Positions 8,492-53,694 of a stretch of DNA of 58,422 bases are shown here, in pieces. This DNA comes from Minisyncoccota bacterium. Lineage in GTDB: Bacteria; Patescibacteriota; Minisyncoccia; Phycocordibacterales; PALSA-1337. Location: positions 1-58,422 of the forward strand of contig JBAYFZ010000004.1 in NCBI GenBank assembly GCA_041666915.1, in the 5' to 3' direction. Position numbers and translations under genes: made by a program. A model generated the notes under the pieces. It was not told the DNA's origin, ran no database searches, and saw only the letters and a list, made by a program, of their open reading frames with translations. Every line of letters begins with the position of its first letter. The stretch's first letter is position 1.

Positions 8492-8503
8492 ATCGCCACT
8501 ATA

Positions 8504-12990: not shown

Positions 12991-13058
12991 AACCCCCACC
13001 TTTCTAGTAACTTATGCAAAAAATGTTCGTGATGTTCGGTTTCTGCAATATATTTGAG
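12987..13058 (-). pseudogene. Detached 24-codon 3' fragment of a homologue of gene 14347-14811
   Basis: 67/72 nt identical to 14347-14418. It encodes the same LKYIAETEHHEHFLHKLLERWGF* tail, and the frame is closed by TAA three codons upstream. Confidence 0.85.
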
Positions 13059-13077
13059 CGTGAGTTATAATCTACTT

Positions 13078-33714: not shown

Positions 33715-33866
33715 AGTTTTTATCCTTTGGTTGTTTTTGTTGTACTTTGTATATCCCACATGAGATACGTTGTAGTCAATACTATTGATAAAAAAATAAA
33801 AAGCAAGAGTCGGTCGAATCCATCAAAGTCTCATGTGGAAAACAATACGTACGCGCGTCTGTTATA

Positions 33867-37423: not shown

Positions 37424-37466
37424 GTGATATTTAAGTATATTCGTCTAATATGCTATGCTTTTTTGT

Positions 37467-38333
37467 ATGTCAGCTATTATTTTAGATGGAAAGAAAACTC
37501 GCGACGAAGCTATACCAGAACTCGCTAAAAGAGTTACGGAGCTTTCTTTTGTGCCAAGTTTAGTCATTATTCAAGTTGGAGAAAGAGCTGATTCTACTTC
37601 ATTTATAAAATCCAAAAAATCGTTTGCTGAAAAGATCGGTGTAAATACGAAGCATATTCAAGTGCCCGAAAATATAAAACAGGACGAACTTGTAGATATT
37701 ATAAAAAAGAACAATGAAGATGCTTCTGTAAATGGAATTATTGTTCAATTACCTTTACCTTCAGAAATTGATCGTGATGTCGTCATTGATACTATTTTGC
37801 CAAATAAAGATGTAGACGCTCTGACTGCTCACAACGTAAAACGTTGGTTGGATGGTAATGAAAACGCTATCATGCCGGCAACAGCTAGGGGTATTCGTGA
37901 ACTTTTGAGAAAATATAAGATAGGGCTTTCTGGCAAGAAAGTCGTAGTAGTTGGACGTTCAACCTTGGTAGGGAAACCTATCACCGCTATGTGTCTGGAT
38001 GAAAATGCTACAGTTACAGTTTGTCATAGTAAAACTCCCGATCTTGCCAAAGAAACACAAAGTGCAGATGTAGTCATTGTTGCTGTTGGTAAGCAAGGTC
38101 TCATAAAAGCTGAGCATGTAAAAGCTGGGCAAATTATCATTGACGTTGGTATCAATACAGTTGAGGGTAAAAAGCTTGATGATGAAATCCCTAACAAGAA
38201 ACTTTATGGTGATGTTGATTTTGAAAATGTTGTAGGCAAAGTTTCGGCTATTACACCTGTTCCTGGTGGGGTAGGACCGATGACCGTGCTATCCCTTTTT
38301 GAAAACTTGTTGGATTTGTGCAAAAAAGTTTAG
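37467..38333 (+). CDS. folD: Bifunctional methylene-THF dehydrogenase / methenyl-THF cyclohydrolase
   Basis: ILDGKK, VQLPLP, VVGRSTLVGKP, VCHSKT, PVPGGVGPMTV. Confidence 0.9.
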   Translation: MSAIILDGKKTRDEAIPELAKRVTELSFVPSLVIIQVGERADSTSFIKSKKSFAEKIGVNTKHIQVPENIKQDELVDIIKKNNEDASVNGIIVQLPLPSEIDRDVVIDTILPNKDVDALTAHNVKRWLDGNENAIMPATARGIRELLRKYKIGLSGKKVVVVGRSTLVGKPITAMCLDENATVTVCHSKTPDLAKETQSADVVIVAVGKQGLIKAEHVKAGQIIIDVGINTVEGKKLDDEIPNKKLYGDVDFENVVGKVSAITPVPGGVGPMTVLSLFENLLDLCKKV

Positions 38334-41637: not shown

Positions 41638-42135
41638 CTAATTTACTATTTCATACTCCAACAGCAACGTTCCTCCTTCAGTTTTTTCGCAATTCAAAAG
41701 TTTTAGTTTGAAATCCAGATCTTCTTTGAATAATTTCATACCTTCGCCAAAAAGTACTGGTTCAATGGTTAGATAGAGTTTACTTACGAGACCAGCTTTC
41801 ATAAACATATTATAAATCGTTGTACCACCACAGATGGCAACTTCTTTGAAGCCACGAGCTTCTAGACTCTTTAGAAGTTCTGTTGGTGGAAGTGCCGTGA
41901 TCTCCATCCCAGGCATGGTTGGTATTTCTGTAGGGGAGTAGACGACATTCAGACGATCTTTGAGTGGTTTGCCTAGTGTCTGCCAAGTATTGAGGCCCAT
42001 GACCATTACACCAGCGCGCTTGGTTATCTCAACAAAGCGCTTTTTGTCTTCTTTGCTGGTCCACATTGCGGCATGCGTCTGATTTTTGGCTATGAAGCCG
42101 TCGGCGGTCAAGGCGGAAATGATGAAGGTTTTCAT
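41638..42135 (-). CDS. Dihydrofolate reductase-like (RibD C-terminal domain family)
   Basis: FIISALTADGFIA, MGLNTWQTL, ICGGTTIYNMF. Confidence 0.65.
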   Translation of the reverse strand: MKTFIISALTADGFIAKNQTHAAMWTSKEDKKRFVEITKRAGVMVMGLNTWQTLGKPLKDRLNVVYSPTEIPTMPGMEITALPPTELLKSLEARGFKEVAICGGTTIYNMFMKAGLVSKLYLTIEPVLFGEGMKLFKEDLDFKLKLLNCEKTEGGTLLLEYEIVN

Positions 42136-42238: not shown

Positions 42239-42868
42239 ATGACTAAAAAAGGATTTGTTACCAGAGGAGGAATATTCGCGCTAGGTTCTAATTTCAAGGA
42301 TCGCTTTGTGCCGGATTACAATCATCTAAAGAGACTCGTAGATCATTGTAAGGGTGTAGGCCTCAAGATAGTCCTTACTCAAGGAACTTATGATATGGCT
42401 CATATCGGTCACGCTAGATATTTTGAAGAAGCTAGGAAGCATGGAGACTTGTTGGTTGTTGGTGTAGATAGTGATAAGAAGGTAAAAGCTAGAAAAGGTC
42501 CAGATCGCCCTATTGTGCCTCAAACTGAGCGTTTGGAAATGGTTACGCATCTTCGTTCTGTAGATATTGTCACTTTGAAGGAGCTTAATGTTCCTAGGTG
42601 GCATCTCATCAAGACGGTTGAGCCAGACGTTTTGATTATTACAAAAGAAACTTTGGAGAAATATTCAAAAGAAGAAGTAAAAGAGATGAGTTCATATTGT
42701 GGAAAAGTCGTTACGTTGGCGCCAATGGCTACAACTTCTACTAGTGCCAAGATTAGACTTCTTCAACTCAAGCTCGCCAAGAAGTTTGAAAAGGCTATAG
42801 TACCAAAATTGGCAGATATGATCAGTTCTGCTCTCGGATATCCAAAAAATGCCGGTAAAAAGAAATAA
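42239..42868 (+). CDS. Cytidylyltransferase-like nucleotidyltransferase
   Basis: HxGH motif GTYDMAHIGHARYFEEARKHGD, and VGVDSD. Confidence 0.7.
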   Translation: MTKKGFVTRGGIFALGSNFKDRFVPDYNHLKRLVDHCKGVGLKIVLTQGTYDMAHIGHARYFEEARKHGDLLVVGVDSDKKVKARKGPDRPIVPQTERLEMVTHLRSVDIVTLKELNVPRWHLIKTVEPDVLIITKETLEKYSKEEVKEMSSYCGKVVTLAPMATTSTSAKIRLLQLKLAKKFEKAIVPKLADMISSALGYPKNAGKKK

Positions 42869-43754
42869 TCTAAAGGTTAAAAAGATTACTACTTCAAAAA
42901 AAGAAGTAGTAATTGTTGCGTACGTACCAGTTTTACATGAAGGCTATAGAAGATTTTTTGAAAATCATTTGGAAGCCAAAACTTTGTATATTCTCGGTAA
43001 TGAAATAACAAAAGAGTTTGTACCTTTGGTGAAAGATATAAGAGCTTTGCCCGTAGAGGTTGTAAAGACTTCTTTGGAATCGTGGCATAGGTTCAAAAAG
43101 ATTGAAATTATTGAATCTTGTGATTGGGATAAAATTTCTAAAGGAAATAGAGAAATAATAATGCCAGATGATGAAGTTATGAGAGATTTGAAAGGTAAAT
43201 TTTTACCTGATTCAAAAGTTGTTTTTGATACGATATTTTTGCGATGGGATAAGCATAAATCAAGCCAAGGTCACCCCGTTGAGATAGATCAGAAGATTTC
43301 AGTTAAGGATTCCGATAAGCAAATGATTAAGCTTCTACGAAAAGAAGCTGAAAAGAGCTCGGATTTTTGGAGACAGATAGGTGCGGCGATTGTTAAGGAT
43401 GGAAAAATATTATTTATGAATCATAATCATTCTGTACCTTCAGAATTTATGCCTTATGTTGAAGGTGATCCTAGGAGTGATTTTCATAAAGGTGTAAATG
43501 TTGAATTATCTACAGTTCTTCACGCTGAGGCGGGTCTGATCGCTGAAGCCGCCAGAGAAGGAGTCTCTCTGGAAGGTGCAGAGATGTACGCAACAACTTT
43601 TCCTTGTCCTCCTTGCGCGAAGATGATCGCTTATTCTGGAATCAAAAAACTTTATTACGCTGATGGTTATGGAGTCTTGGATGCGGATAGAATACTCAAA
43701 AGTAGGGGGGTTGAAATTATTTTTGTGGAGACAAAAGAAAACGGCCACAATTAA
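42849..43754 (+). CDS. dCMP/cytidine deaminase with an extra ~150-aa N-terminal domain
   Basis: The C-terminal half has VLHAEAGLI and TFPCPPCAKMI (the zinc site). The N-terminal half is unrecognised, though VPVLHEGYRRFFE faintly resembles an HxGH nucleotidyltransferase motif. Confidence 0.7.
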   Translation: MPVKRNNLKVKKITTSKKEVVIVAYVPVLHEGYRRFFENHLEAKTLYILGNEITKEFVPLVKDIRALPVEVVKTSLESWHRFKKIEIIESCDWDKISKGNREIIMPDDEVMRDLKGKFLPDSKVVFDTIFLRWDKHKSSQGHPVEIDQKISVKDSDKQMIKLLRKEAEKSSDFWRQIGAAIVKDGKILFMNHNHSVPSEFMPYVEGDPRSDFHKGVNVELSTVLHAEAGLIAEAAREGVSLEGAEMYATTFPCPPCAKMIAYSGIKKLYYADGYGVLDADRILKSRGVEIIFVETKENGHN

Positions 43755-43784
43755 GTGACCGTTTGTTGTTCTGTTTGCTAATTA

Positions 43785-44369
43785 TTAACCGAGACGATCT
43801 TTGACCAGTTCTTGTTCTTCTGGAGAAAGTGATTCAAAAGGCGTTCCCAAACGCATTTTTTCGTAAATCGCAACGACTTTCCAGTGCCAAAGAATCTTAT
43901 CTTTATCTTTTGCTAAGGTCACTTCCAATTTTCCATTACCGTCTGGTACTTGGATGTTGCAATGAAGATGACGAATGGTGCCAGCGTTGAATAGTGGATC
44001 TCCAAATCGCATTGTGACACCGCCACCAGGTAGTTCGAATTCTATGTCTGCCCAATTAAACACATCCACTAAATCAGCACCTTCATCACGCCTCAATTGT
44101 CTTACATGAGTAATGTGCCTCTTACAAGGAATAACTAAATGAAGTGCGGTATTCTTTTTTCCTAGGACAGGATTAACCCACGCCCTCCACGAATCGTTTT
44201 CATAAAGGATTTCATTGATTTTGTGATCAATCTGACAGAATGGACAAATCCCTTCCTGTAAGTTTTTGACCATGAGGCAATAGTATTTGTAGCTTCCTAC
44301 AAAGAGTAGTGAGCCTATGTCCATCCGATCAATTCCTGGTATTGATAACAACGGATTTTGTATTTCCAT
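43785..44369 (-). CDS. HIT-superfamily protein with an H-x-H-x-N motif (GalT/Ap4A-phosphorylase-like branch)
   Basis: N-terminal CPFC and C-terminal GTIRHLHCNIQVP. The ATG at 44369 is preferred to the TTG at 44411. Confidence 0.55.
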   Translation of the reverse strand: MEIQNPLLSIPGIDRMDIGSLLFVGSYKYYCLMVKNLQEGICPFCQIDHKINEILYENDSWRAWVNPVLGKKNTALHLVIPCKRHITHVRQLRRDEGADLVDVFNWADIEFELPGGGVTMRFGDPLFNAGTIRHLHCNIQVPDGNGKLEVTLAKDKDKILWHWKVVAIYEKMRLGTPFESLSPEEQELVKDRLG

Positions 44370-44451
44370 AACTATCTCTCTTTCTTCTGATTGTTGTAAC
44401 GTCCAAAACAACCTTATAATAGGTTTAAGTGGTTGTCAATTTAGTAATAAA

Positions 44452-44925
44452 CTAACCCTTCTTATAATTTTTCGGTTGACCAAATTTGAATTTCCAAGAT
44501 TCCTCTGGGGCTAGTGCTTCTAAATCTGGTTCTATAAGGTGAGCGTGAAGATGTAGGACACTATTGCCATATGAACCATGTTCTGGATTGCTACCAAAAC
44601 GAATAGCGATACCTCCGCCGGGTATGTTCCTTTTTACTGCTTCAGTTTGGAACATTTCTATAAGTTCAGTGCCAGCCACTGGATCCATCTCAGAGATATG
44701 TTCTATGTGAGTCTTGTATATAGCTAGTAACTGATGTTTGATCTTTTCGTAAGGCCATTGGTTGTCAGTGAGAATCCAATATTTACCTTCTTTTAAAATA
44801 GGATTTTTGTGATATTTCAGTAGATTTTCTGTACAAAAAGGACAATGATTTTGATCAGCTATTTCATTCATAACCTCAGTCTGATCTTTTCGTCTTACAT
44901 TATCCAAGATAATAAATTTTTTCAT
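44452..44925 (-). CDS. HIT-family protein with a canonical histidine triad
   Basis: N-terminal CPFC and C-terminal NSVLHLHAHLIEP. The ATG at 44925 lies 1 nt after the thyA stop. Confidence 0.7.
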   Translation of the reverse strand: MKKFIILDNVRRKDQTEVMNEIADQNHCPFCTENLLKYHKNPILKEGKYWILTDNQWPYEKIKHQLLAIYKTHIEHISEMDPVAGTELIEMFQTEAVKRNIPGGGIAIRFGSNPEHGSYGNSVLHLHAHLIEPDLEALAPEESWKFKFGQPKNYKKG

Positions 44926-44926
44926 A

Positions 44927-45838
44927 TTATATTGCCACAGGTATACCTTTGATGCCTGGGTGTGGAGCGTAATCTGAAAGAGTGAAATCTTCTTTTCTAA
45001 AATCAAACAAATCTTTTTTGTCAGAATTTATGATCATTGTAGGGAAAGATTTTGGCTCACGACGAAGCATTTCTTCTACGGCTGGTATTTGATCTACGTA
45101 AATATGAGCATCAGAAATAGTGTGGATGTATTCATAAGGCTCAGTACCGGTTGCCCGTGCAATAGCCATGAGTAGGGCAGCGTATTGGATCATGTTTGCT
45201 GGTACTCCTACTGGCACATCGCCAGAACGTTGGATCATATGCAGAGTTAGTTTATTATCCAAAATTCTCAAGTGAATCCAGCCGTGGCATGGTGCAACGA
45301 CGACTTTTTGTTGTTTTCCTGCACCACGAATAGTGTATTGAGGTATCCAAGGTGTGATGAAATGGGTTCGTAAATGAGGAAATTCTTTTATTTGTTCTAT
45401 AATGTTTTTGAATTGATTGTATGTGGAACCTTCGGATGTGGGGAAGTCGTGGAAGGCTGCTCCATAAGATCCTGGGCCAAGATCGCCGGTCTCTAGTCCA
45501 CGTTTTTTACATTTAGCTTCTGTACCCCAAGGAGCCCACCATGAACAACCAAATTCTTCTAACATTTTCAAAGTTCTAGCACCATTTATGAAAGCTAAAA
45601 TTTCGGCTACAGCTTGTTGCCAAATTGTTACCTTTAGCATCTCTGAAGTCTTGGGATTCATATTTCTCTCAGTAATCATTGGAAAACCATTTTCCAATTT
45701 GAAATGCATAGAACCAGGTCCCATGAGAGTGATAGCGTCTACTTCTTGTTGAGTCTTTGTTCGTACACCTTTTTCCAAAATCTGTTTGAGGATGTCCCGG
45801 TATTGTGTATCAGGTGTTCTTTCTGCAAATGGCTTCAT
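44927..45838 (-). CDS. thyA: Thymidylate synthase (ThyA type)
   Basis: VVVAPCHGWIHLRI (catalytic Cys), MIQRSGDVPVGVPANMIQYA. Confidence 0.95.
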   Translation of the reverse strand: MKPFAERTPDTQYRDILKQILEKGVRTKTQQEVDAITLMGPGSMHFKLENGFPMITERNMNPKTSEMLKVTIWQQAVAEILAFINGARTLKMLEEFGCSWWAPWGTEAKCKKRGLETGDLGPGSYGAAFHDFPTSEGSTYNQFKNIIEQIKEFPHLRTHFITPWIPQYTIRGAGKQQKVVVAPCHGWIHLRILDNKLTLHMIQRSGDVPVGVPANMIQYAALLMAIARATGTEPYEYIHTISDAHIYVDQIPAVEEMLRREPKSFPTMIINSDKKDLFDFRKEDFTLSDYAPHPGIKGIPVAI

Positions 45839-45902
45839 GTAAGTGGGATATTTTTGTTTATAATACAGCGATTATAACACTTTACTGCTTGCGAATAACT
45901 AG

Positions 45903-45931
45903 TTGACAGAAAACACCTATAGGTGTAAGGT
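45903..45931 (+). promoter_or_regulatory. Candidate promoter with an embedded 12-bp palindrome
   Basis: TTGACA-17 nt-TAAGGT. The spacer contains the perfect palindrome CACCTATAGGTG (45914-45925). Confidence 0.4.
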
Positions 45932-46045
45932 TATATAAGTAGTACTTTTGATTTCTGCTTTTCTTCGCAGTACTTGCCGTCCATATGTGTTCATGTTGAC
46001 GTTCCTGAGTGGTTGGTACTGAAGCGAGTAGGTTAGGGTGTGGGT

Positions 46046-46087
46046 GGGTCCGTCGCATTGTGCATTTTGCGACGGACCCCTTTTTTT
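46046..46087 (+). terminator. Strong intrinsic terminator 28 nt upstream of the glyA start (leader attenuator or sRNA end)
   Basis: An 11-bp stem GGGTCCGTCGC / GCGACGGACCC with a 12-nt loop, followed by C and TTTTTTT. There is no plus-strand gene upstream. Confidence 0.7.
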
Positions 46088-46114
46088 ACACGGACAATAT
46101 GATACGATTGGGGC

Positions 46115-47344
46115 ATGAAAGACACACAAATAAAAAAGCTCATAGAAGCTGAAAAGAAACGACAGAAGAAAGTTATCAATCTGATCGCTTCAGAAAACTA
46201 TGTTTCCAAAGATGTGTTAGAGGCTCTCGGTTCCGAATTAACAAATAAATATGCAGAAGGGTATCCAGGTAAACGCTATTATGGTGGTAATGAGATAGTA
46301 GATAAGATTGAAAATGTTTGTATAGAGAGGGCTCTGAAACTTTTTGGTCTTAGTGGCCCCTCGACTGACGCTCGGGGCAATTCGCCTTTGGCAAATTGGC
46401 ATGTCAACGTTCAGCCACTTTCTGGTTCACCAGCAAACTTGGCGGTGTACACAGGTTTGGTGCCTCAAGGTGGAAAGATCATGGGTATGTCACTTGCTCA
46501 AGGTGGACATTTGACTCATGGACACAAAGTCTCGGCAACGGGAAAGTTTTGGCAACAAATACCTTATGGTCTAGATTCTGCGACTGAAGTTTTGAATTAC
46601 GATCAATTGAAAGAAACTGCCATGAAAGAAAAGCCAGCTATCATCGTCTCTGGTTTTACTGCCTATCCTCGTACGATTGATTGGAAAAAAATGCGCGAGA
46701 TCGCCGATACAGCAGGAGCTTTGATGATGGTGGATATGTCACATATTGCGGGCCTTGTCGCTGGTGGAGCCTATCCTTCACCTTTTGAATATGCGGACAT
46801 CGTCACAACTACTACTCACAAGACTTTGCGTGGTCCAAGAGCGGCTCTCATCTTCGTAAAGATTGATGCTCGTGAACTTGATAAAAAGATAGACAAAGCA
46901 GTTTTCCCAGGTCTCCAAGGTGGTCCCCATGAAAATCAAATTGCCGGAGTTGCAGTGGCTCTCAAAGAAGCCAATACTCCAGCTTTCAAAAAATATGCAA
47001 AACAAGTAGTAAAGAATGCTAGTGTTTTGGCGGTAGAATTATCTAACCTCGGTTGGCGTCTCATCTCTGGTGGTACGGAGACTCATCTTATATTGTTGGA
47101 TACTTGGAATATGGGTAACAAAAATGAAAAGGGTGCTGGTGGCGTCTCTGGACAAGAGGCTAGTTTGAAATTAGAAAAAGCTGGGATTATAGTAAATAAA
47201 AATGCCATTCCTTTTGACACTCGTCCACCAGCAGATCCATCTGGTATTAGGTTAGGAACAGCAGCAGAGACTACTCGTGGAAGAAAAGAAAAAGATTTCA
47301 AGGTTATTGCCAAAAAGATTGATGCGATTTTGAGGAAAAATTAA
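46115..47344 (+). CDS. glyA: Serine hydroxymethyltransferase
   Basis: LIASENYVS, VQPLSGSPAN, TTTTHKTLRGPR (PLP lysine). It carries a hairpin-repeat insertion at 46352-46379. Confidence 0.95.
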   Translation: MKDTQIKKLIEAEKKRQKKVINLIASENYVSKDVLEALGSELTNKYAEGYPGKRYYGGNEIVDKIENVCIERALKLFGLSGPSTDARGNSPLANWHVNVQPLSGSPANLAVYTGLVPQGGKIMGMSLAQGGHLTHGHKVSATGKFWQQIPYGLDSATEVLNYDQLKETAMKEKPAIIVSGFTAYPRTIDWKKMREIADTAGALMMVDMSHIAGLVAGGAYPSPFEYADIVTTTTHKTLRGPRAALIFVKIDARELDKKIDKAVFPGLQGGPHENQIAGVAVALKEANTPAFKKYAKQVVKNASVLAVELSNLGWRLISGGTETHLILLDTWNMGNKNEKGAGGVSGQEASLKLEKAGIIVNKNAIPFDTRPPADPSGIRLGTAAETTRGRKEKDFKVIAKKIDAILRKN

Positions 47345-47785: not shown

Positions 47786-49483
47786 ATGAAAGAGAAATTG
47801 AGCGAATATCTGAAAGGGGTTGTATCAGTGTTTGGTGCTGATATTGCTGTACCAAATCTCGATTATCCGGAAAATCCAGAGCATGGGGATTTTTCGACCA
47901 ATACAGCTATGGCTAATGCAAAGAAATTGGGCATGTCACCCAAAGTTTTGGCCGACAAAATAGTTCTTGAATGTAAGAAGAATATGCCAGAATTTATCCG
48001 TGATATCAGTATCGCTGGTCCAGGATTCATTAATTTCTTTATTAAAGATCAGTTCATAGCCGAAGAAGTTTTGAATGTTGGAAAAAATTATGGAAAATTT
48101 GATAAAGAGAATGGTAAGAAAGTTTTGGTTGAATATACCGATCCAAACACTTTCAAAGTATTTCATATCGGCCATTTGATGAGTAATTCTATAGGTGAGT
48201 CACTTTCTAGACTCGTAGAATATTCTGGAACTTCTGTTACTAGGATTTGTTATCCATCAGATATTGGTTTGCATATAGCCAAGTCAGTTTGGGCTGTACA
48301 AAAACATATAGATGAAATGCCAAAAGAGTCAGCTCCAATACAAGAGAGGACAGATTTTTTGGGTAAGATGTATGTCTTTGGCACAAAAGCTTACGATGAT
48401 GATGCAAATGCAAAAACAGAAATAGATGCTTTGAATAAAGTTTTGTATGACAAGACAGATCCGAAGGTTAATGAATTATATGAAAAGGGAAGGAAGTGGA
48501 GTTTGGATCACTTTGAATTATTGTACAAAACATTGGGTACAAAATTTGATGATTATATTTACGAAAGTGAAATGGCTAGTATTGGACTTGCGACGGTCAG
48601 TTCCAATTTGGGAAAAGTTTTTGAAAAGAGTGAAGGGGCTGTTGTTTTCAAAGGAGAAGAATATGGTTTGCACACCAGAGTTTTCGTCAACGCTCATGGA
48701 ATACCTACTTATGAAGCCAAAGATCTTGGTTTGAATATAACTAAATTTAAAAAATATCCTACAACTGACCAATCAATAATAGTTACAGCTAGTGAACAAA
48801 ACGATTATTTTAGAGTTCTTACCAAAGTCATATCTTTGATTGATGAGAAGAATGGTTCAAAGACCAAGCATATTGGTCATGGCATGATGCGTTTCCTTTC
48901 TGGAAAAATGTCTTCACGTACAGGTAATGTCATAACCGCAGAAGCTTTGCTTCAGGATATAAAGGATTTGGTGAAAGAAAAGATAAAAGACCGAGAATTT
49001 TCTGCTGGAGAAGCCGAAGAATTGTCAGAAATGATCGCTGTTGGTGCTATCAAATATACGATCCTACGTTCATCTGTTGGTAGTGATATTATTTTTGATT
49101 CATCAGCTTCTATTTCTTTTGAAGGTGATTCTGGCCCATATCTCCAATATTCAGCTGTGAGAGCAAATTCCATTATAGAAAAAGCAGAGAAGGAGGGGAT
49201 TACAAAAGATATTATTTTGCCAGAATCGGTCAATCTCATTGAAAAACTCATTACCAGATTCCCAGACATCGTCATGCGAGCTAAGGATGGTTATGCTCCA
49301 CAAATTATCGCCAATTATCTCATCACTCTTTCCGGAGCATTCAATAGTTTCTACGCTTCACAAATTATTGTAGATAAAAATAATAAACTTTCTCCTTACT
49401 ACATCTCATTAACTAAAGCATTTCTTATTACTATGACAAATGGTTTGTGGATTTTGGGGATCAAAGTGCCAAAGAAGATGTAA
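47786..49483 (+). CDS. argS: Arginyl-tRNA synthetase
   Basis: Class I HIGH variant FHIGHLMS, MSSRTGN, and a C-terminal DALR-type anticodon-binding region. Confidence 0.95.
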   Translation: MKEKLSEYLKGVVSVFGADIAVPNLDYPENPEHGDFSTNTAMANAKKLGMSPKVLADKIVLECKKNMPEFIRDISIAGPGFINFFIKDQFIAEEVLNVGKNYGKFDKENGKKVLVEYTDPNTFKVFHIGHLMSNSIGESLSRLVEYSGTSVTRICYPSDIGLHIAKSVWAVQKHIDEMPKESAPIQERTDFLGKMYVFGTKAYDDDANAKTEIDALNKVLYDKTDPKVNELYEKGRKWSLDHFELLYKTLGTKFDDYIYESEMASIGLATVSSNLGKVFEKSEGAVVFKGEEYGLHTRVFVNAHGIPTYEAKDLGLNITKFKKYPTTDQSIIVTASEQNDYFRVLTKVISLIDEKNGSKTKHIGHGMMRFLSGKMSSRTGNVITAEALLQDIKDLVKEKIKDREFSAGEAEELSEMIAVGAIKYTILRSSVGSDIIFDSSASISFEGDSGPYLQYSAVRANSIIEKAEKEGITKDIILPESVNLIEKLITRFPDIVMRAKDGYAPQIIANYLITLSGAFNSFYASQIIVDKNNKLSPYYISLTKAFLITMTNGLWILGIKVPKKM

Positions 49484-49498
49484 TAGTGTAAAAATATC

Positions 49499-52400
49499 AT
49501 GGAAAATCAAAAAATAAATAAATCAACTCACACTGAAAGAGAAGAACGGATCCTGAATTTCTGGAAAGAAAAAGGAACATTTGAAAAGTCTTTGAACAAG
49601 GAATCTCCAAAAGGGGAGTTTACTTTTTACGATGGTCCGCCTTTTGCTACAGGAACTCCTCATTATGGTCATATTCTCGCCGGTACTATCAAGGACGTCA
49701 TTCCAAGATGGAAAACGATGCAGGGTTACCATGTACGCCGACGTTGGGGTTGGGATTGTCATGGTTTGCCAGTAGAAAATCTCATAGAAAAAGAGCTTGG
49801 TCTCAAGAGTAAAAAAGATATTGTTGATTATGGTATCGGCAAATTCAATGAAGCCGCTAGAGAAAGTGTCATGCGTTATGCCGATGAATGGAGGACCATT
49901 GTCCCTAGATTGGGGAGGTGGGTAGATATGGTGAATGATTATCGCACTATGGATGCAACTTATACTGAGTCGGTTTGGTGGATCTTCAAAGAGTTACATA
50001 ATAAAGGTTTGATTTATGAAGGTTTCAAATCTATGAACCTTTGTCCTCATTGTGAGACGACATTGTCCAATTTTGAGGTTGCTCAGGGTTACAAAGATAT
50101 CACAGACATTTCTGTTTTTGTTAAATTCAAATTAGTTTCCGGAAGCCTCGCTTCCGGAGGCTTCACCTCCGGAAGTTCAGATCCTGTCTATTTCTTGGCT
50201 TGGACGACAACACCTTGGACTTTGCCGGGTAATACTGCTTTGGCAATAAATCCAAAGATTGAATATATGAAGATTTCTATTTCTGAAGGAGATGAACAAA
50301 AGAAAGGTTTTTATATTTTAGCCAAAGAAAGATTGGCGGTTTTGAAAGATGTCAAATATGAAATTGTAGAATCAATGAAAGGTTCGGAACTAGTCGGTCA
50401 ATCATATCAACCGCTTTTTGATTATTATTCAAAAGATAAAGATCTCAAGAATAGGGAAAATGGTTGGAAAGTTTATGGTGCTGAATTTGTAACGATAGAA
50501 GATGGTACGGGTATCGTTCACATCGCTCCAGCTTTTGGTGCAGATGACTACGCTTTGTCTTTGGAAAACAATTTACCATTTGTTCAGCATGTCTCTATGG
50601 ATGGAAAATTCAAAAAAGAAATCACGGAATTTGCTGGAACGAAGGTGAAGCCAATAGATACTGATGAAGATAAGAACGCTCATCAAAAGGCTGATATAGA
50701 AATCATAAAATGGTTGGCTCACAACGGATTTTTGTTTGAAAAAGAAAAGCTCATCCACTCATATCCTCATTGTTGGAGATGTCAGACACCATTGCTCAAT
50801 TACGCTACATCTTCTTGGTTTGTAAAAGTTACGGATTTGAAAGATAAACTTGTTTCTGAAAACAATAAGGTCACTTGGGTTCCACCAGAAGTGGGAAGTG
50901 CTAGATTTGGTAATTGGCTAGAAGGTGCTCGCGATTGGGCTATATCAAGGTCTAGATTTTGGGGTGCACCGATACCGGTTTGGAAAGAAGAATCGGATGA
51001 TGCAATGAAAGTAAAGTATCATGTATTGGGTTCAGTTGATGATCTAAAGAAGTTTAGTAAATCAAAGAATACGTATTATATGATGCGACATGGTCAGTCG
51101 GAGAATAATATCTTGAAAGTTTTGAATTCGGATAAATCAAAAAAGTTTCATCTGACTGAGCTTGGTAGAGAACAGGCTAAAAAGACGGCAACCGATTGGA
51201 GTATTAAGATTGATCATATATTTTGCTCGCCAATCCTCCGAGCTCGCGAGACGGCAGAATTATTTGCTGAGAACGTTGGCTTTGATAAAGATAAAATCGT
51301 TTTTGACGATCGCCTTTGTGAGATGGGAATGGGTGAATTTGAGGGTGTTGATGAAAATAAATTAGGAAATCTTTTTGAGAGTCGAGAGGAATATTTTACA
51401 AAAAATAAAAATGGAGTTGAGAATCGTAATGATCAGAAAAAACGTGTCGGCTCATTCTTGGAAGAGACTGATAAAAAATATGAAGATAAAACTATTCTTG
51501 TAGTTAGTCATGATGGCCCTCTTTGGATGTTGGAATCGGCGGCGCATGGTTTGGATATTCAAGGTTCTTTGGCACTCAAACCAAAAGATAGTGTGTATCT
51601 GAATAATGCCGAAGTTAGAAAATTGGATTTTTCACCACTTCCTCATAATGCCGAATATGAATTGGATTTGCATAGACCTTATATAGATAATATTGAACTC
51701 AAGACAGAGGATGGTAATAAACTAACGAGAGTTCAGGATGTTTTTGATTGTTGGTTTGAATCTGGTTCAATGCCTTACGGAGAATCTCATTATCCATTTG
51801 AGAATGAAGAGTTTGAGCCAAAATCTGGTTTGCTCCACAAATCAAAAGGTTATCCAGCTGATTTTATAGCGGAAGGTTTGGATCAGACAAGAGGATGGTT
51901 TTATTCCATGCTTGTTTTGGGGGTGGCACTTTTCGGAAAGACTCCTTACAAAAAAGTTATCGTTAACGGCTTAGTTTTGGCAGAAGATGGTGAAAAAATG
52001 TCCAAGTCAAAGAAGAATTATCCTGATCCAATGCTGGTGGTAGGTAAATACGGAGCCGATTCTCTCAGATTTTATTTACTCTCTTCACCGGTAGTTCACG
52101 GTCAGGATCTTTGTTTTAGTGAAAAAGGGGTGGATGAGGTGACGAAGAAAGTGGTCAATAGACTATTGAATGTGGTTTCTTTTTATGAAATGTATGCAAA
52201 TTCAATAACCAATAACCAAACACCAATAACCAAGGGGATCTCTCAAAACGTTTTGGATAAATGGATCATTTCTAGATTGAATGAGACTACAAAAGAAGTT
52301 AGTGATGGTCTGGAAAAAGGGGAGGTAGATAGAGCTACAAGACCATTTTTGGATTTTACAGATGATCTTTCTACTTGGTATTTGAGACGTTCCCGCGATA

Positions 52401-53071
52401 GATTCAAAGAGGATAATGAAGATAAAGTCTTTGCTTTGGAAACAACTAAAATGGTTTTGCTTACGATTGCAAAATTGTTGGCGCCATTCATGCCATTCCT
52501 AGCCGATGAAGTTTATCAGAAGGTTGGTGGTTCAATGGAAAGTGTTCATTTGGAAGATTGGCCAGTAGATGACAAGGTTGATTTGAAAGTATTGGAGACA
52601 ATGAAAGTTGTCAGAGATATAGCATCAAAAGGTTTGGAAGCTCGCATGTCGGTCAAGATCAATGTCCGTCAACCACTTGCAAGTCTCAAAATTTCTGCTT
52701 TTGCAAAAATGGTGACCGCAGAATCTACAGACAAAATAAAATTCAATTCAAAAGATATGGACGCGCAGTTTGTAGATCTTATAAAAGATGAAGTGAATGT
52801 TAAAGAAGTTATTTTTGGGTCTACTATTACAAATGAAGTAGAACTTGATGTAGTTTTGACACCAGAACTCAAGGAAGAAGGTGAACTACGCGAACTTCTA
52901 CGAAAGATTCAAGATCTTAGAAAAGAAAAAGGCTTGTCGGTTGGAGATACGGCTGTACTCATTGCCACTGAAAATCTCAGAGGAATAATTTCTAAAAATT
53001 TGGAAACAATCAAGAAAACTACGAGTCTTGGTTCTATTGAATATGGAGAAGAGTTCAAGTTGAAAGTCTAG
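49499..53071 (+). CDS. ileS: Isoleucyl-tRNA synthetase (type 2) with a nested histidine-phosphatase domain
   Basis: PHYGHILAG (HIGH), WTTTPWTLPGN (editing domain), KMSKS, DCWFESGSMPY. There are extra inserts at 50137-50175, 51068-51631 and 52206-52237. Confidence 0.95.
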   Translation: MENQKINKSTHTEREERILNFWKEKGTFEKSLNKESPKGEFTFYDGPPFATGTPHYGHILAGTIKDVIPRWKTMQGYHVRRRWGWDCHGLPVENLIEKELGLKSKKDIVDYGIGKFNEAARESVMRYADEWRTIVPRLGRWVDMVNDYRTMDATYTESVWWIFKELHNKGLIYEGFKSMNLCPHCETTLSNFEVAQGYKDITDISVFVKFKLVSGSLASGGFTSGSSDPVYFLAWTTTPWTLPGNTALAINPKIEYMKISISEGDEQKKGFYILAKERLAVLKDVKYEIVESMKGSELVGQSYQPLFDYYSKDKDLKNRENGWKVYGAEFVTIEDGTGIVHIAPAFGADDYALSLENNLPFVQHVSMDGKFKKEITEFAGTKVKPIDTDEDKNAHQKADIEIIKWLAHNGFLFEKEKLIHSYPHCWRCQTPLLNYATSSWFVKVTDLKDKLVSENNKVTWVPPEVGSARFGNWLEGARDWAISRSRFWGAPIPVWKEESDDAMKVKYHVLGSVDDLKKFSKSKNTYYMMRHGQSENNILKVLNSDKSKKFHLTELGREQAKKTATDWSIKIDHIFCSPILRARETAELFAENVGFDKDKIVFDDRLCEMGMGEFEGVDENKLGNLFESREEYFTKNKNGVENRNDQKKRVGSFLEETDKKYEDKTILVVSHDGPLWMLESAAHGLDIQGSLALKPKDSVYLNNAEVRKLDFSPLPHNAEYELDLHRPYIDNIELKTEDGNKLTRVQDVFDCWFESGSMPYGESHYPFENEEFEPKSGLLHKSKGYPADFIAEGLDQTRGWFYSMLVLGVALFGKTPYKKVIVNGLVLAEDGEKMSKSKKNYPDPMLVVGKYGADSLRFYLLSSPVVHGQDLCFSEKGVDEVTKKVVNRLLNVVSFYEMYANSITNNQTPITKGISQNVLDKWIISRLNETTKEVSDGLEKGEVDRATRPFLDFTDDLSTWYLRRSRDRFKEDNEDKVFALETTKMVLLTIAKLLAPFMPFLADEVYQKVGGSMESVHLEDWPVDDKVDLKVLETMKVVRDIASKGLEARMSVKINVRQPLASLKISAFAKMVTAESTDKIKFNSKDMDAQFVDLIKDEVNVKEVIFGSTITNEVELDVVLTPELKEEGELRELLRKIQDLRKEKGLSVGDTAVLIATENLRGIISKNLETIKKTTSLGSIEYGEEFKLKV
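51068..51631 (+). other. Histidine phosphatase (PGAM-like, branch 1) domain inserted in ileS
   Basis: YMMRHGQSENN, ELGREQA, CSPILRARETA, EMGMGEFEG and LVVSHDGP occur in canonical order. The segment is in frame with no stops. Confidence 0.8.
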
Positions 53072-53073
53072 CC

Positions 53074-53694
53074 ATGTACAACATATATACCACCCCCGGT
53101 TTCGTTGTCGGATCAAAACCCCATGGGGAAGCGGGTAAGATAATTTTTATCTTTACTCGTGATTTTGGCATGGTCACGGCTACGGCACAAGGTATTCGTC
53201 TGGAAAAATCAAAACTTCGTTACAATTTGCAGGATTATTCTTTTGGTACATTTTCTCTGGTTAGAGGTAAAGAATTTTGGAGATTGACCAGTGGAGCGGA
53301 GCAAGTTATTAGTTCTATTGAAAAAGGTGGTCCGATTGAGAGTGGCCCCTCGAATTCCTCGGGGCAGGGTAAACAACTCACGGCTCGCATAGCCTTACTT
53401 CTCCGAAGATTCCTCCATGGCGAAGAAAATCATCCAGAATTATTTGATTGCATTAGAAATGGAATTCAATTCTTGGAGAAAGTGTCAAATATTACCGAAG
53501 AGCAATTAAAAACCCTTGAATCAGTAATTGTTTTTAGAATGCTTGAATTATTGGGCTATATCGGAAAAGATTCCGTATTACAAGGTAAATTGCAATCAAA
53601 CTCATTCTCAATTGAATTGCTGGATGAATTGGCCAGTAAGAGGGTAGTTATCAACCAACATATAAATAAAGCCCTTAAAGAGTCGCATTTATAG
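53074..53694 (+). CDS. recO: DNA repair protein RecO
   Basis: OB-fold N-terminus GFVVGSKPHGEAGKIIFIFTRDFGMVTATAQG, the size, and the context. It carries a hairpin repeat at 53341-53366. Confidence 0.7.
   Translation: MYNIYTTPGFVVGSKPHGEAGKIIFIFTRDFGMVTATAQGIRLEKSKLRYNLQDYSFGTFSLVRGKEFWRLTSGAEQVISSIEKGGPIESGPSNSSGQGKQLTARIALLLRRFLHGEENHPELFDCIRNGIQFLEKVSNITEEQLKTLESVIVFRMLELLGYIGKDSVLQGKLQSNSFSIELLDELASKRVVINQHINKALKESHL

What the first reader, a model, noticed from the sequence alone, without database searches (positions are those of the whole stretch)
51068..51631. Apparently intact histidine-phosphatase (PGAM-like) domain nested inside isoleucyl-tRNA synthetase
The 1190-aa ileS ORF follows the normal type-2 IleRS order: HYGH, the WTTTPWTLPGN editing domain, WAISRSRFWGAPIPVW, then ELDLHRPYID...DCWFESGSMPY, and KMSKS. 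IleRS enzymes I know have only a few tens of residues between the LGSVDDLKKF segment and ELDLHRPYID. Here about 188 extra residues sit in frame at that point.
Those residues carry the histidine phosphatase superfamily branch 1 motifs (dPGM/CobC/SixA-like) in canonical order:
- RHG (YMMRHGQSENN)
- ELGREQA
- SPILRARETA (second Arg)
- EMGMGEFEG
- VVSHDG (second His)
All catalytic positions look preserved, so the insert could be an active enzyme rather than a decayed one. I do not know of a described aaRS with a nested phosphatase. Any role, such as acting on a phosphorylated nucleotide, a tRNA end or an inhibitor, is pure speculation.
Basis: partly seen in the sequence, partly recalled or inferred. 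Interest (0 to 1): 0.8.

Follow-up and report, generated by a model that had tools for sequence, protein, structure and literature searches.

The report
Histidine phosphatase nested inside isoleucyl-tRNA synthetase
The isoleucyl-tRNA synthetase of this Patescibacteria (CPR) bacterium carries a complete, apparently active histidine phosphatase inside its catalytic body; hundreds of relatives share this, sister lineages encode the same phosphatase as a separate gene beside ileS, and I found no paper describing it.

Summary
ORF 49499-53071 is a type-2 IleRS (TIGR00392 883 bits). A 189-aa His_Phos_1 domain (aa 524-712, nt 51068-51634; Pfam E=3e-30) is nested at a turn that is about 2 aa long in human IleRS.

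- **Not a chimera or a one-off.** All 120 closest relatives have the insert. At least 464 metagenome loci carry it, and 80 of 80 fetched show the same argS-ileS-recO synteny.
- **Looks active.** The catalytic residues (R530, H531, N537, R581, E608, H671) are invariant in 120/120. The domain models at pLDDT 96 and resembles small phosphatases (PspA, PhoE, CobC), not mutases.
- **Replaces a zinc knuckle.** The insert sits in the middle of a Cys4 knuckle whose cysteines have been lost in 120/120 nested enzymes.
- **Split and fused forms exist.** In sister lineages the same phosphatase is a separate ~190-aa gene abutting an insert-less ileS (5 verified and 1 probable of 7 examined).
- **Other variants.** Some IleRS carry it at two other sites or as two copies, one ValRS-like ORF has four copies, and four TsaC fusion clusters exist. 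Catalytic residues are kept in nearly all copies.

The substrate is unknown. I infer a phosphomonoesterase tied to IleRS. A neutral hitch-hiker origin from the adjacent gene is a serious rival. No literature describes it.

The parts
49499..53071 (+). ileS: type-2 isoleucyl-tRNA synthetase, 1190 aa, with a nested phosphatase
   Evidence: ORF. TIGR00392 scores 883 bits against a cutoff of 621. The AF2 model has pLDDT 87 and pTM 0.80. The best PDB match is P. megaterium IleRS2, 8c8v, TM 0.82.
49499..50983 (+). IleRS N-terminal part (aa 1-495): first half of the catalytic fold, CP/editing domain, and the WAISRSRFWGAPIPVW motif
   Evidence: Pfam tRNA-synt_1 stretch 18-516. Motifs: HYGH aa 55-58, WTTTPWTLPGN aa 235-245, GTGIVHIAPAFGADD aa 336-350, WAISR... 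aa 480-495.
50984..51067 (+). Left arm of the former Cys4 knuckle hairpin (aa 496-523, ...KVKYHVLGSVDDLKKFSKSK), now without cysteines
   Evidence: Aligns to '...IPLWVSDDFEEVVCIGSVAELEELSGAK' of human IleRS. None of the 120 nested relatives keeps 2 or more Cys on each side, whereas insert-less L007 and P0146 keep CxxxxxxC...CxxC or CxxC...CxxC.
51068..51634 (+). Nested His_Phos_1 (branch-1 histidine phosphatase) domain, aa 524-712
   Evidence: PF00300 E=9e-32 on the excised piece. The domain-only AF2 model has pLDDT 95.6 and pTM 0.92. Foldseek best match is PspA 4ij6, TMq 0.83, E=8.5e-13, followed by Rv2419c, HFP, CobC and PhoE.
51086..51094 (+). RHG motif: R530, H531 (predicted phospho-accepting nucleophile), G532
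   Evidence: Invariant in 120/120 relatives. RH is present in all 287 domain copies that cover this position.
51239..51241 (+). R581, second phosphate-pocket arginine (SPILRARETA)
   Evidence: Invariant in 120/120 and in all 287 copies.
51320..51322 (+). E608, predicted general acid
   Evidence: Invariant in 120/120; E or D in almost all 287 copies. It aligns with the 'rlcEmgmG' / 'riiEidhG' position of PspA.
51509..51511 (+). H671, second catalytic histidine (VVSHDG)
   Evidence: Invariant in 120/120.
51635..51688 (+). Right arm of the hairpin; the IleRS core resumes (aa 713-730, PLPHNAEYELDLHRPYID)
   Evidence: Aligns to 'PLPEPFDPHRPYVD' of T. thermophilus IleRS and 'DLHRESVD' of human IleRS. 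P713, P715, H716, N717, H725, I729 and D730 are invariant or nearly so.
51689..53068 (+). IleRS C-terminal part: DCWFESGSMPY, KMSKS (aa 833-837), anticodon-binding domain and DUF5915
   Evidence: Pfam Anticodon_1 920-1060 and DUF5915 1114-1185. Motif coordinates.
47786..49483 (+). argS, the conserved upstream neighbour. In split lineages the stand-alone phosphatase gene lies between argS and ileS
   Evidence: ORF. Synteny seen in L002, L003 and L007 and in most of 80 metagenome loci.
53074..53694 (+). recO-like gene, the conserved downstream neighbour
   Evidence: RecO_N E=1.6e-12. It lies downstream of ileS in most of the 80 loci.

Best explanation
SHOWN:
- The ORF is this organism's type-2 IleRS. 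No second copy lies in the 58-kb window.
- At aa 524-712 a complete ~190-aa branch-1 histidine phosphatase of the small 'phosphatase' type (PspA/PhoE/CobC-like, not a mutase) is nested at the tip of a hairpin. That hairpin lies between WxISRxRFWGxPIP and HRPYID...DCWFESG.
- In insert-less relatives this hairpin is a Cys4 zinc knuckle. Here the cysteines are gone, so the phosphatase fold now closes the hairpin.
- The domain folds on its own: stand-alone homologues exist and the domain-only model is confident.
- It keeps the whole catalytic set: R530, H531, N537, R581, E608, H671.
- It is the fused form of a two-gene module. In sister lineages the same phosphatase subfamily is a separate gene abutting an insert-less ileS.
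- Other lineages carry it at two other IleRS surface sites, or in two copies, with catalytic residues kept throughout.

INFERRED:
- It hydrolyses a phosphomonoester through a phospho-His531 intermediate, with E608 as the acid. It acts as a third catalytic site, independent of the synthetic and editing sites.
- It works in the service of IleRS rather than in general metabolism. The most likely substrate is a small nucleotide-type phosphate ester connected with adenylate or tRNA-end chemistry. Candidates are a 2'/3'-phosphorylated tRNA 3' end, or AMP- or PPi-type products.
- Fusion provides 1:1 co-expression and co-localisation rather than a precise channel.

My rough weights:
- Architecture, autonomy and catalytic competence: at least 0.9.
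- Functional coupling to IleRS: about 0.5.
- Any single named substrate: at most 0.2.
For: Identity and nesting:
- Established.

Catalytic competence:
- The catalytic residues are invariant in 120/120 relatives.
- R-H..R..E/D..H is retained in nearly all of 287 domain copies. This includes both copies of two-domain IleRS and the complete copies in a four-copy ORF.
- The insert evolves faster than the core (pairwise identity 0.51 against 0.70-0.74) while those residues stay fixed.

Fold:
- pLDDT is 93-98 within the full model and 95.6 for the domain alone.
- TM is 0.83 to PspA, followed by Rv2419c, HFP, CobC and PhoE.

Zinc knuckle replacement:
- Shown: Lineage-wide and vertically inherited:
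- All 120 closest relatives carry the insert.
- L001, at 44 % identity overall, has the same insertion site.
- 307 representatives score E<=1e-30.
- At least 464 metagenome loci were confirmed, and 80 of 80 fetched are nested in the conserved synteny.

Split form:
- Stand-alone ~190-aa relatives lie directly upstream of insert-less ileS in four cases: P0158, P0210, P0254, P0213.
- P0219 lies tail-to-tail with ileS.
- P0171 follows argS and is probably followed by ileS.
- The distant relative P0001 is in an unrelated context.

Recurrence:
- Three insertion sites in IleRS (A, B, C), plus tandem copies.
- Tandem first copies cluster with first copies and second with second, so the duplication is old and both copies were kept.
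- A ValRS-like ORF carries four copies.
- A tandem phosphatase gene lies upstream of a class-Ib aaRS gene.
- TsaC-His_Phos_1 fusions occur in four clusters.
Against: - I could not measure how the phosphatase pocket faces the synthetic site, the KMSKS loop or the tRNA path.
- The variety of sites (A, B, C), the variable copy number and the stand-alone form argue against a geometry-dependent mechanism. They fit any small-molecule phosphatase equally well.
- Because the stand-alone gene sits beside ileS, local duplication and deletion could nest it repeatedly with no functional link.
- Patescibacteria fuse housekeeping enzymes promiscuously. TsaC is fused to Ogt, TruB, a 2H phosphoesterase, MPG, GNAT and Nudix, and the window has a PurC-PurE fusion.
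- The IleRS bias seen here comes from a search seeded with an IleRS insert, so I have not shown that other aaRS lack such a domain. The only exceptions found are one ValRS-like ORF and one class-Ib neighbour.
- I found no literature precedent for a His_Phos_1 enzyme acting on tRNA ends or PPi.
- One stand-alone relative (P0194, L098) shows no ileS or argS signal in its 118-nt downstream or 229-nt upstream flanks. The contig is too short to say more.
Confidence: 0.5

Rival explanations
1. Neutral hitch-hiker. The domain is an ordinary housekeeping small-molecule phosphatase, for example a phosphoserine, sugar-phosphate or nucleotide phosphatase or a short dPGM-like enzyme. Its gene happened to lie next to ileS. 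Local duplication and deletion nested it into tolerant surface loops several times, and after the stand-alone copy was lost the nested copy had to be kept. There is no mechanistic link to aminoacylation.
For: - The stand-alone gene is adjacent to ileS, which gives a simple route to repeated nesting.
- Insertions at three different loops and variable copy number show that geometry is not critical.
- The cap and fold are typical of small-molecule phosphatases. The best sequence and structure match is a phosphoserine phosphatase, and the best NCBIfam hit is an archaeal short dPGM.
- CPR genomes fuse unrelated enzymes freely.
- glyA (serine hydroxymethyltransferase) lies just upstream of argS (two genes upstream of ileS) in the conserved cluster.
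Against: - Adjacency to ileS persists across divergent lineages, including one in convergent orientation.
- The same subfamily also turns up in a ValRS-like ORF, next to a class-Ib aaRS gene and fused to TsaC.
- Old tandem duplicates both retain their catalytic residues.
- Every subfamily equivalog cutoff (PspA, dPGM, CobC, SixA) is missed by a wide margin.
Confidence: 0.3
2. Self-protecting synthetase. The domain is a protein phosphatase that removes inhibitory phosphorylation from the synthetase itself. The model is HipA/HipT-type kinase toxins, which phosphorylate the KMSKS-region serine of class I aaRS. Tethering the antidote to the target makes it act in cis.
For: - All aaRS partners seen (IleRS, ValRS-like, class Ib neighbour) are class I enzymes, a class defined by HIGH/KMSKS-type motifs; I checked KMSKS only in the window protein.
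- A gene abutting its target's gene is a typical layout for immunity functions.
- The closest solved relative acts on phosphoserine.
- That HipA targets GltX and HipT targets TrpS is from my own knowledge, not from a tool.
Against: - IleRS is not a known kinase-toxin target.
- The retained ~35-aa cap is more typical of small-molecule enzymes than of SixA-like protein phosphatases.
- The SixA model scores 33 against a cutoff of 74.5.
- TsaC does not fit this idea.
- No kinase partner was seen in the conserved neighbourhood.
Confidence: 0.08
3. Non-catalytic module. The domain only replaces the zinc knuckle structurally, or serves as a phosphate- or tRNA-binding appendage, and does not turn over substrate.
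For: - The knuckle cysteines are lost in all nested enzymes, so the domain has taken over a structural role.
- The junction residues are highly conserved.
Against: - A purely structural role does not explain invariance of the nucleophile, both Arg, the acid (E or D) and the second His across about 287 copies. These include stand-alone proteins and second copies.
- It also does not explain insertions at sites B and C in enzymes that keep the knuckle.
Confidence: 0.05
4. Artefact: an assembly chimera or frameshifted junction of two genes.
For: None found. A few relatives (L020, L097, L015) have ileS broken into two ORFs, which may be sequencing errors.
Against: - The ORF is continuous and its composition is uniform.
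- The same junctions occur in hundreds of independent assemblies.
- The fold prediction is confident across both junctions.
Confidence: 0.01

Closest known systems
Bacterial type-2 IleRS (e.g. Priestia megaterium IleRS2, PDB 8C8U/8C8V) and T. thermophilus IleRS (1ILE)
   Same: Same enzyme family and domain order: catalytic fold, CP/editing domain, KMSKS and type-2 C-terminal domains. Foldseek gives TM 0.82 to 8c8v and 0.87 (target-normalised) to 1ile. TIGR00392 is above its cutoff.
   Different: The solved enzymes have 2-20 residues at the insertion point, where the window has a 189-aa phosphatase. The Cys4 knuckle seen in T. thermophilus and in insert-less CPR relatives is lost here. A 2026 survey of IleRS domain evolution lists HUP, CP1, CP2, ED, ARD1-3 and INS only.
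Small branch-1 histidine phosphatases: PspA/iPSP1 (4IJ5/4IJ6), PhoE (1H2E), CobC (6E4B), Rv2419c (4PZ9), riboflavin-pathway HFP (9MMH)
   Same: Same fold (TM 0.74-0.83), similar size and the same catalytic residues.
   Different: Sequence identity is only 20-25 %. All NCBIfam equivalog cutoffs are missed: PspA 52/350, dPGM_arch 103/225, CobC 75/163, SixA 33/74.5. It is nested in another enzyme or encoded next to ileS, and its substrate is unknown.
NCBIfam NF040702 'isoleucine--tRNA ligase, N-acetyltransferase domain-containing' (ileS_w_GNAT)
   Same: A curated precedent for an IleRS that carries an extra enzymatic domain. One relative found here (P0207) has both His_Phos_1 and GNAT domains.
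   Different: The domain is different (GNAT). Judged from model coordinates, it sits at a different position, within the editing-domain region. The window scores 338 against a cutoff of 1999, so it is not a member.
CP1 editing domain of class Ia aaRS (IleRS/ValRS/LeuRS)
   Same: A hydrolytic domain nested in the catalytic fold of the same enzymes. It acts as a separate active site (established knowledge).
   Different: CP1 is universal in these enzymes, hydrolyses mis-acylated tRNA, and is visited by the tRNA 3' end. The phosphatase is clade-specific and has different chemistry (a phospho-histidine intermediate). No link to tRNA has been shown.
Rv2228c-type bifunctional RNase H / acid phosphatase (NF005567)
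   Same: A CobC-like His_Phos_1 domain fused to a nucleic-acid enzyme. The insert hits this model at E=2.5e-18.
   Different: It is an end-to-end fusion rather than a nested one, and the partner is different. The score of 66 is far below the cutoff of 326.

Membership tests
Isoleucyl-tRNA synthetase (TIGR00392), type 2 | Whole-protein score above the curated equivalog cutoff | tested here: met
   883.4 bits against a cutoff of 621.4, in two stretches split by the insert.
Isoleucyl-tRNA synthetase (TIGR00392), type 2 | Class I signature motifs HIGH and KMSKS, plus CP1 editing motifs | tested here: met
   HYGH aa 55-58, KMSKS aa 833-837, WTTTPWTLPGN aa 235-245, GTGIVHIAPAFGADD aa 336-350.
Isoleucyl-tRNA synthetase (TIGR00392), type 2 | Type-2 (eukaryote-like) structure and C-terminal organisation | tested here: met
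   The best sequence and fold matches are cytoplasmic or type-2 IleRS (9w01, 8wnd, 8c8u/v). Type-1 enzymes score far lower. DUF5915 is present at the C-terminus.
Isoleucyl-tRNA synthetase (TIGR00392), type 2 | Aminoacylation activity with Ile and tRNA-Ile | not testable with these tools
   Requires biochemistry.
Histidine phosphatase superfamily, branch 1 (Pfam PF00300) | Profile score above the gathering threshold | tested here: met
   105.6 bits in the full protein and 110.7 bits for the excised piece, against a cutoff of 21.7.
Histidine phosphatase superfamily, branch 1 (Pfam PF00300) | Catalytic core: RHG histidine nucleophile, two arginines, acidic proton donor, second histidine | tested here: met
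   R530, H531, R581, E608 and H671 (plus N537) are present and invariant in 120/120 relatives.
Histidine phosphatase superfamily, branch 1 (Pfam PF00300) | The alpha/beta phosphoglycerate-mutase-like fold | tested here: met
   The domain model has pLDDT 95.6. Foldseek gives TMq 0.83 and rmsd 2.3-2.4 A to 4ij6.
Histidine phosphatase superfamily, branch 1 (Pfam PF00300) | Phosphatase or mutase activity through a phospho-histidine intermediate | not testable with these tools
   Requires an enzyme assay with an H531A control.
Cofactor-dependent phosphoglycerate mutase (dPGM; NF038349 and related models) | Equivalog score cutoff | tested here: not met
   NF038349 scores 103.3 against a cutoff of 225. 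The GpmA and GpmB models score 19-45 against cutoffs of 261-366. Structural neighbours are small phosphatases, and mutases rank lower.
PspA-type phosphoserine phosphatase (NF045917) | Equivalog score cutoff | tested here: not met
   52.4 bits against a cutoff of 350. The PspA 'EIDHG' histidine aligns to M611 here, and the family consensus at that column is A/T/S. The importance of that histidine for PspA is recalled from memory, not tested.
CobC alpha-ribazole phosphatase (TIGR03162) and SixA (TIGR00249) | Equivalog score cutoffs | tested here: not met
   CobC scores 75.3 against 162.9, and SixA scores 33.4 against 74.5.
IleRS with GNAT domain (NF040702); MupA/MupB resistance IleRS (NF000257/8) | Exception-model cutoffs | tested here: not met
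   Scores are 338 against 1999, 701 against 1900 and 742 against 1900. There is no GNAT domain in the window protein.

The most novel reading that the evidence does not exclude
The phosphatase is a genuine third catalytic site of the synthetase. In this reading it is an aaRS-borne repair or defence activity specific to CPR bacteria. Examples would be removing a blocking 2'/3'-phosphate or pyrophosphate from the tRNA 3' end before charging, or reversing inhibitory phosphorylation of the enzyme. The split (operon) and nested forms would then be two solutions to the same functional partnership.
Probability: 0.25. Interest if true: 0.85.

Novelty: new variant of a known kind. Interest (0 to 1): 0.62.

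Why it matters
Aminoacyl-tRNA synthetases are among the best-studied enzymes. [quoted passage not shown]

This finding adds several points:
- A large, uncultured bacterial clade has put a complete and apparently active phosphatase inside the catalytic body of an essential synthetase.
- The phosphatase replaced a zinc knuckle.
- The same pair of activities also exists as two adjacent genes, as double-domain enzymes, and at three different insertion sites.

If the phosphatase serves aminoacylation, it would be a new accessory activity of an aaRS and a new aspect of CPR translation biology. If it does not, this is an unusually clear natural series for studying how domains become nested: adjacent gene, then nested domain, then loss of the structural element it replaces.

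Either outcome is directly testable with recombinant protein. On the practical side, annotation pipelines currently name these proteins without mentioning the phosphatase. NCBI falls back to 'class I tRNA ligase family protein'.

Tried and rejected
1. **Genome scan wasted.** I ran the only genome-contig scan with the single insert sequence. A single-sequence query reaches close relatives only and returned one locus (L001). This was a planning mistake. It cost the species-level taxonomic survey I had wanted, so taxonomy rests on source names only.
2. **Insert-only homology search.** The word-index search with the insert alone found only one weak stand-alone hit. Full-length and profile searches were needed.
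3. The nested profile A2 was used instead, and its pattern favours nested forms. The 80/80 result therefore says nothing about how frequent stand-alone forms are.
4. **No model coordinates.** Coordinates are not exposed. I could not measure distances between the phosphatase pocket, the synthetic site, KMSKS and the tRNA path.
5. **Rejected: dPGM, PspA, CobC or SixA identity.** All cutoffs are missed.
6. **Rejected: recent horizontal insertion.** Composition is uniform, the synteny is conserved, and divergence is deep.
7. **Rejected: a second ileS or a second phosphatase of this subfamily in the window.** None was found.
8. **TsaC fusion downgraded.** I first read it as a strong clue to shared adenylate chemistry. 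I downgraded it after seeing only four clusters and many unrelated TsaC fusions in Patescibacteria.
9. **L043's extra ORF is not an intermediate.** This His_Phos ORF between argS and ileS is a distant paralogue, 28 % identical to the nested copy.
10. **Little gained** from the listing of cluster members, the Rfam scan (tRNAs only) and the last context look-up (965-bp contig).
11. **Literature.** Seven searches found no description of the architecture. One query was malformed.
Full report
**Observation**

The window holds a continuous 1190-aa ORF at 49499..53071 (+), between argS (47786..49483) and a recO-like gene (53074..53694).
- It is an IleRS. TIGR00392 scores 883 bits against a cutoff of 621.
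- HYGH, the CP1 editing motifs and KMSKS are all in place.
- Pfam finds His_Phos_1 (PF00300) at aa 527-694 with E=3.3e-30, between two tRNA-synt_1 stretches.
- G+C is the same in the insert and its flanks.

Alignment to solved IleRS sequences fixes the boundaries.
- '...LGSVDDLKKFSKSK' aligns with human '...IGSVAELEELSGAK'.
- 'LDLHRPYID' aligns with 'DLHRESVD', which follows only two residues later in the human enzyme.
- T. thermophilus has about 19 residues at this point.
- The insert is therefore aa 524-712, nt 51068-51634.

**Not an artefact and not a one-off**

- The 120 best relatives of the full protein (56-70 % identity, 1149-1332 aa) all carry PF00300 together with the IleRS domains. 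They come from NCBI, JGI, ENA and Logan assemblies. Where named, the organisms are Patescibacteria, Paceibacterota, Parcubacteria or Taylorbacteria.
- A more distant Paceibacterota MAG (L001, 44 % identity overall) has the insert at the same site.
- A profile of the insert finds 307 representatives (50 % identity clusters) at E<=1e-30 among 1.84 billion proteins.
- A pattern scan of JGI metagenomes confirmed at least 464 loci. All 80 that were fetched are nested ileS genes in argS-ileS-recO synteny. An 858-kb contig shows thyA-tmk-glyA-(78-aa ORF)-argS-ileS-recO.
- Source names ignore the phosphatase ('class I tRNA ligase family protein', 'isoleucyl-tRNA synthetase').

**State of the domain**

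- In the 120-sequence alignment R530, H531, G532, N537, R581, T585, E608, E641, R649 and H671 are invariant.
- The insert as a whole evolves faster than the core. Mean pairwise identity is 0.51 against 0.70-0.74, similar to the C-terminal DUF5915 region at 0.48. Selection is therefore focused on the catalytic apparatus.
- AlphaFold2 models the whole protein at pLDDT 87 and pTM 0.80, with pLDDT 93-98 through most of the insert. The domain alone reaches pLDDT 95.6 and pTM 0.92.
- The whole model matches P. megaterium IleRS2 (8c8v, TM 0.82).
- The domain model matches small phosphatases: PspA phosphoserine phosphatase (TMq 0.83), then Rv2419c, a riboflavin-pathway HFP, CobC and PhoE. The larger mutases rank lower.
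- No subfamily model reaches its cutoff: dPGM_arch 103/225, CobC 75/163, PspA 52/350, SixA 33/74.5.
- It is a bona fide branch-1 histidine phosphatase of unassigned specificity.

**Where it sits**

- In insert-less relatives the segment between WG(A/T)P(I/L)P(V/I)W and DCWFESG is a 55-60-aa Cys4 knuckle. L007 reads '...WECQKEGEKKCGN...SCEICGS...' and P0146 reads '...WRCDRCGE...WDCATCEG...'. T. thermophilus shows the same cysteines in the alignment.
- The phosphatase is inserted at the tip of this hairpin.
- None of the 120 nested enzymes retains two cysteines on each side. The phosphatase fold has taken over the job of closing the hairpin.
- Both junctions are strongly conserved: N524 and Y526 on one side, and N703, A704, F711, P713, P715, H716 and N717 on the other.
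- By inference from the model's secondary structure (strand 525-530 ends in RH), the catalytic pocket lies at the end of beta-1 distal to the junction. It would therefore not be buried at the attachment point. I could not verify this because coordinates are not exposed.

**The wider family: the most informative result**

I classified the top 150 profile hits with my own HMMs of the IleRS N-core, the insert and the C-core.

a) *Site A.* Most hits are IleRS, full-length or fragments, with the domain at the same site as the window.

b) *Two domains.*
- Tandem at site A: P0209 (1468 aa), P0195, P0208, P0232 and P0235.
- At other sites: B (about window aa 763-786) and C (about aa 902-914) in P0146 and P0199, A plus C in P0173, and A plus B in P0151.
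- P0146 and P0173 are confirmed as IleRS by Pfam, and P0146 also by NCBIfam.

c) *Stand-alone.* About 190-aa proteins start with Met and end right after the last strand of the fold.

d) *ValRS-like.* P0123 is a ValRS-like ORF with four copies. It lies on a low-coverage 3.9-kb contig and lacks the ValRS C-half, so it should be treated with caution.

e) *TsaC fusion.* P0228 is a TsaC/Sua5-His_Phos_1 fusion.

f) *Multi-domain IleRS.* P0207 is an IleRS that also contains an IS200-like Y1 transposase domain and a GNAT domain.

Across 287 domain copies the R-H..R..E/D..H set is almost universal, including every complete copy in multi-copy proteins. Tandem first copies cluster with first copies and second with second, so the duplication is old and both copies were kept.

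**Split versus nested**

Genomic context of the stand-alone relatives:
- P0158 lies between argS and a 931-aa insert-less ileS that starts 2 nt after its stop (L003, L004).
- P0210 precedes a 949-aa insert-less ileS followed by recO (L007, L008).
- P0254 and P0213 are each followed at once by an IleRS N-terminus (L009, L014).
- P0219 is tail-to-tail with ileS (L015).
- P0171 follows argS and precedes an unidentified partial ORF.
- P0194 sits on a 965-bp contig with no signal in its short flanks.
- A distant relative (P0001, 34 % identity) lies in an unrelated Metallophos-HisPhos-Nudix context.
- A two-domain phosphatase gene (P0259) lies upstream of a class-Ib aaRS gene.

The IleRS cores of insert-less enzymes are 54-59 % identical to site-A cores. 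That falls inside the spread of site-A cores among themselves (mean 65 %, minimum 36 %). By distance, split and nested forms are interleaved. I did not build a proper phylogeny.

**Interpretation**

What is shown:
- a complete, autonomous, catalytically intact phosphatase nested in a functional-looking IleRS2;
- replacement of the zinc knuckle;
- an ancient, clade-wide, vertically inherited architecture;
- a persistent genomic partnership between this phosphatase subfamily and ileS, whether adjacent, nested, multi-site or multi-copy.

What is inferred:
- it turns over a phosphomonoester through phospho-His531;
- the partnership is functional.

The tolerance for different sites, different copy numbers and a stand-alone form argues for a small, diffusible or flexibly presented substrate. 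It argues against a rigid channel. The partner enzymes (IleRS, ValRS, a class-Ib aaRS neighbour, TsaC) share ATP-to-adenylate chemistry and tRNA. My leading guesses are therefore a nucleotide-type ester: a phosphorylated tRNA 3' end, or AMP- or PPi-type products. Each guess is weak, at 0.2 or less.

The main rival is neutral. Because the gene lies next to ileS, local duplication and deletion can nest it repeatedly. CPR genomes also fuse unrelated enzymes freely:
- TsaC is fused to Ogt, TruB, a 2H phosphoesterase, MPG, GNAT and Nudix, and only four clusters carry His_Phos_1.
- The window itself has a PurC-PurE fusion.

Under that rival the domain could be an ordinary metabolic phosphatase. The conserved cluster contains glyA just upstream of argS (two genes upstream of ileS), and the nearest solved relative is a phosphoserine phosphatase. 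A protein-phosphatase (anti-kinase-toxin) role and a purely structural role are less likely, for the reasons given under the rivals.

**Comparison with known systems and novelty**

- The host is an ordinary type-2 IleRS.
- The guest is an ordinary branch-1 histidine phosphatase fold that does not reach any characterised subfamily model.
- The closest conceptual precedents are the universal CP1 editing domain, NCBIfam's curated 'IleRS with GNAT domain' model (the window is not a member, 338 against 1999), and Rv2228c-type RNase H/acid-phosphatase fusions.
- Seven literature searches found nothing on a phosphatase in any aaRS. These included a 2026 preprint that dissects IleRS domain evolution over about 1500 sequences and lists only HUP, CP1, CP2, ED, ARD1-3 and INS.
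- The library searched is incomplete, so an existing description cannot be excluded.
- I rate it a new variant of a known kind (a multi-domain aaRS), with interest 0.62.

**Limits**

- No coordinates, no read data, no whole genomes and no biochemistry were available.
- The taxonomic survey was curtailed by my misuse of the single genome scan.
- The metagenome pattern was biased towards nested forms.
- Relationships among forms rest on identity matrices, not trees.

Noticed in passing
P0207 (relative, 1066 aa; not in the window): This IleRS carries three extra domains: an IS200-like Y1 transposase domain (aa 340-461) inside the N-terminal part, His_Phos_1 (680-854), and a GNAT acetyltransferase (935-1063) at about site B. 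CPR IleRS seems to be a hotspot for nested domains.
   Followed up: partly
P0123 / L010:366-3851, L011: A ValRS-like ORF (its N-terminal 417 aa match valS best) contains four His_Phos_1 copies of the same subfamily and lacks the ValRS C-terminal half. It is a complete ORF on a 3.9-kb, ~2x-coverage contig. It could be a split, decayed or mis-assembled gene.
   Followed up: partly
P0228, P0272-P0274 and the list; L005:977-2140: TsaC/Sua5 (threonylcarbamoyl-AMP synthase) of Patescibacteria is fused to many different small enzymes. Partners are Ogt-type DNA-binding domain PF01035 (most common), TruB, 2H cyclic phosphodiesterase (PF07823/PF13563), methylpurine glycosylase, GNAT, Nudix and, in four clusters, this His_Phos_1 subfamily.
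   Followed up: partly
L012:2081-4890 and L013: A two-domain His_Phos_1 gene (P0259, 410 aa) plus a 109-aa His_Phos_1 fragment ORF lie directly upstream of a class-Ib aaRS gene (tRNA-synt_1b). A GNAT gene lies upstream and a Metallophos gene downstream.
   Followed up: no
L043:1527-2171 (-): One genome with a nested ileS also has an intact but distant His_Phos_1 paralogue, 28 % identical to the nested copy. It lies on the opposite strand between argS and ileS.
   Followed up: yes
L020:2334-6079, L097:3-2666, L015:2685-5609 (-): In three relatives ileS is broken into two ORFs. In L020 the break falls between the N-core and the phosphatase plus C-core. I did not determine whether these are frameshift errors or genuine split genes.
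   Followed up: no
window 51320-51346, 51413-51427 (aa 608-616, 639-643, 655): The window and its nearest relatives form a subclade with a variant cap. They read EMGMGE(F/L)EG, GVE(N/T)R and E/K655 where the family consensus has ExNxGxWNG, GGENY and Y655. Aromatic W614, F629, Y643 and Y655 and basic R632 are replaced together. This may mark a shift in substrate specificity.
   Followed up: partly
window 5753-6505 (-) and 6588-6953 (-): There is a Zeta-toxin-family kinase gene (PF06414, E=2.5e-39) with a 121-aa ORF just upstream on the same strand. This may be an epsilon/zeta-type toxin-antitoxin pair.
   Followed up: no
window 32257-33759 (-): A fused PurC-PurE protein (SAICAR synthetase plus AIR carboxylase, 500 aa) sits next to purH (30552-32132). 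purD is at 13054-14328. This CPR genome therefore has at least part of de novo purine synthesis.
   Followed up: no
window 7520-8881 (-) and 8504-9802 (+): The Fpg/Nei glycosylase ORF has a ~130-aa N-terminal extension as listed (TTG start). It overlaps an Amidase_3 ORF on the other strand by ~380 nt. The Fpg start is probably downstream of the listed one.
   Followed up: no
window 42239-47344: A conserved thymidylate and one-carbon cluster lies just upstream of argS-ileS. It holds a cytidylyltransferase-like gene, dCMP deaminase, thyA and glyA, with DHFR at 41638-42135 and folD at 37455-38333. The same cluster sits upstream of ileS in the 858-kb contig L002.
   Followed up: partly
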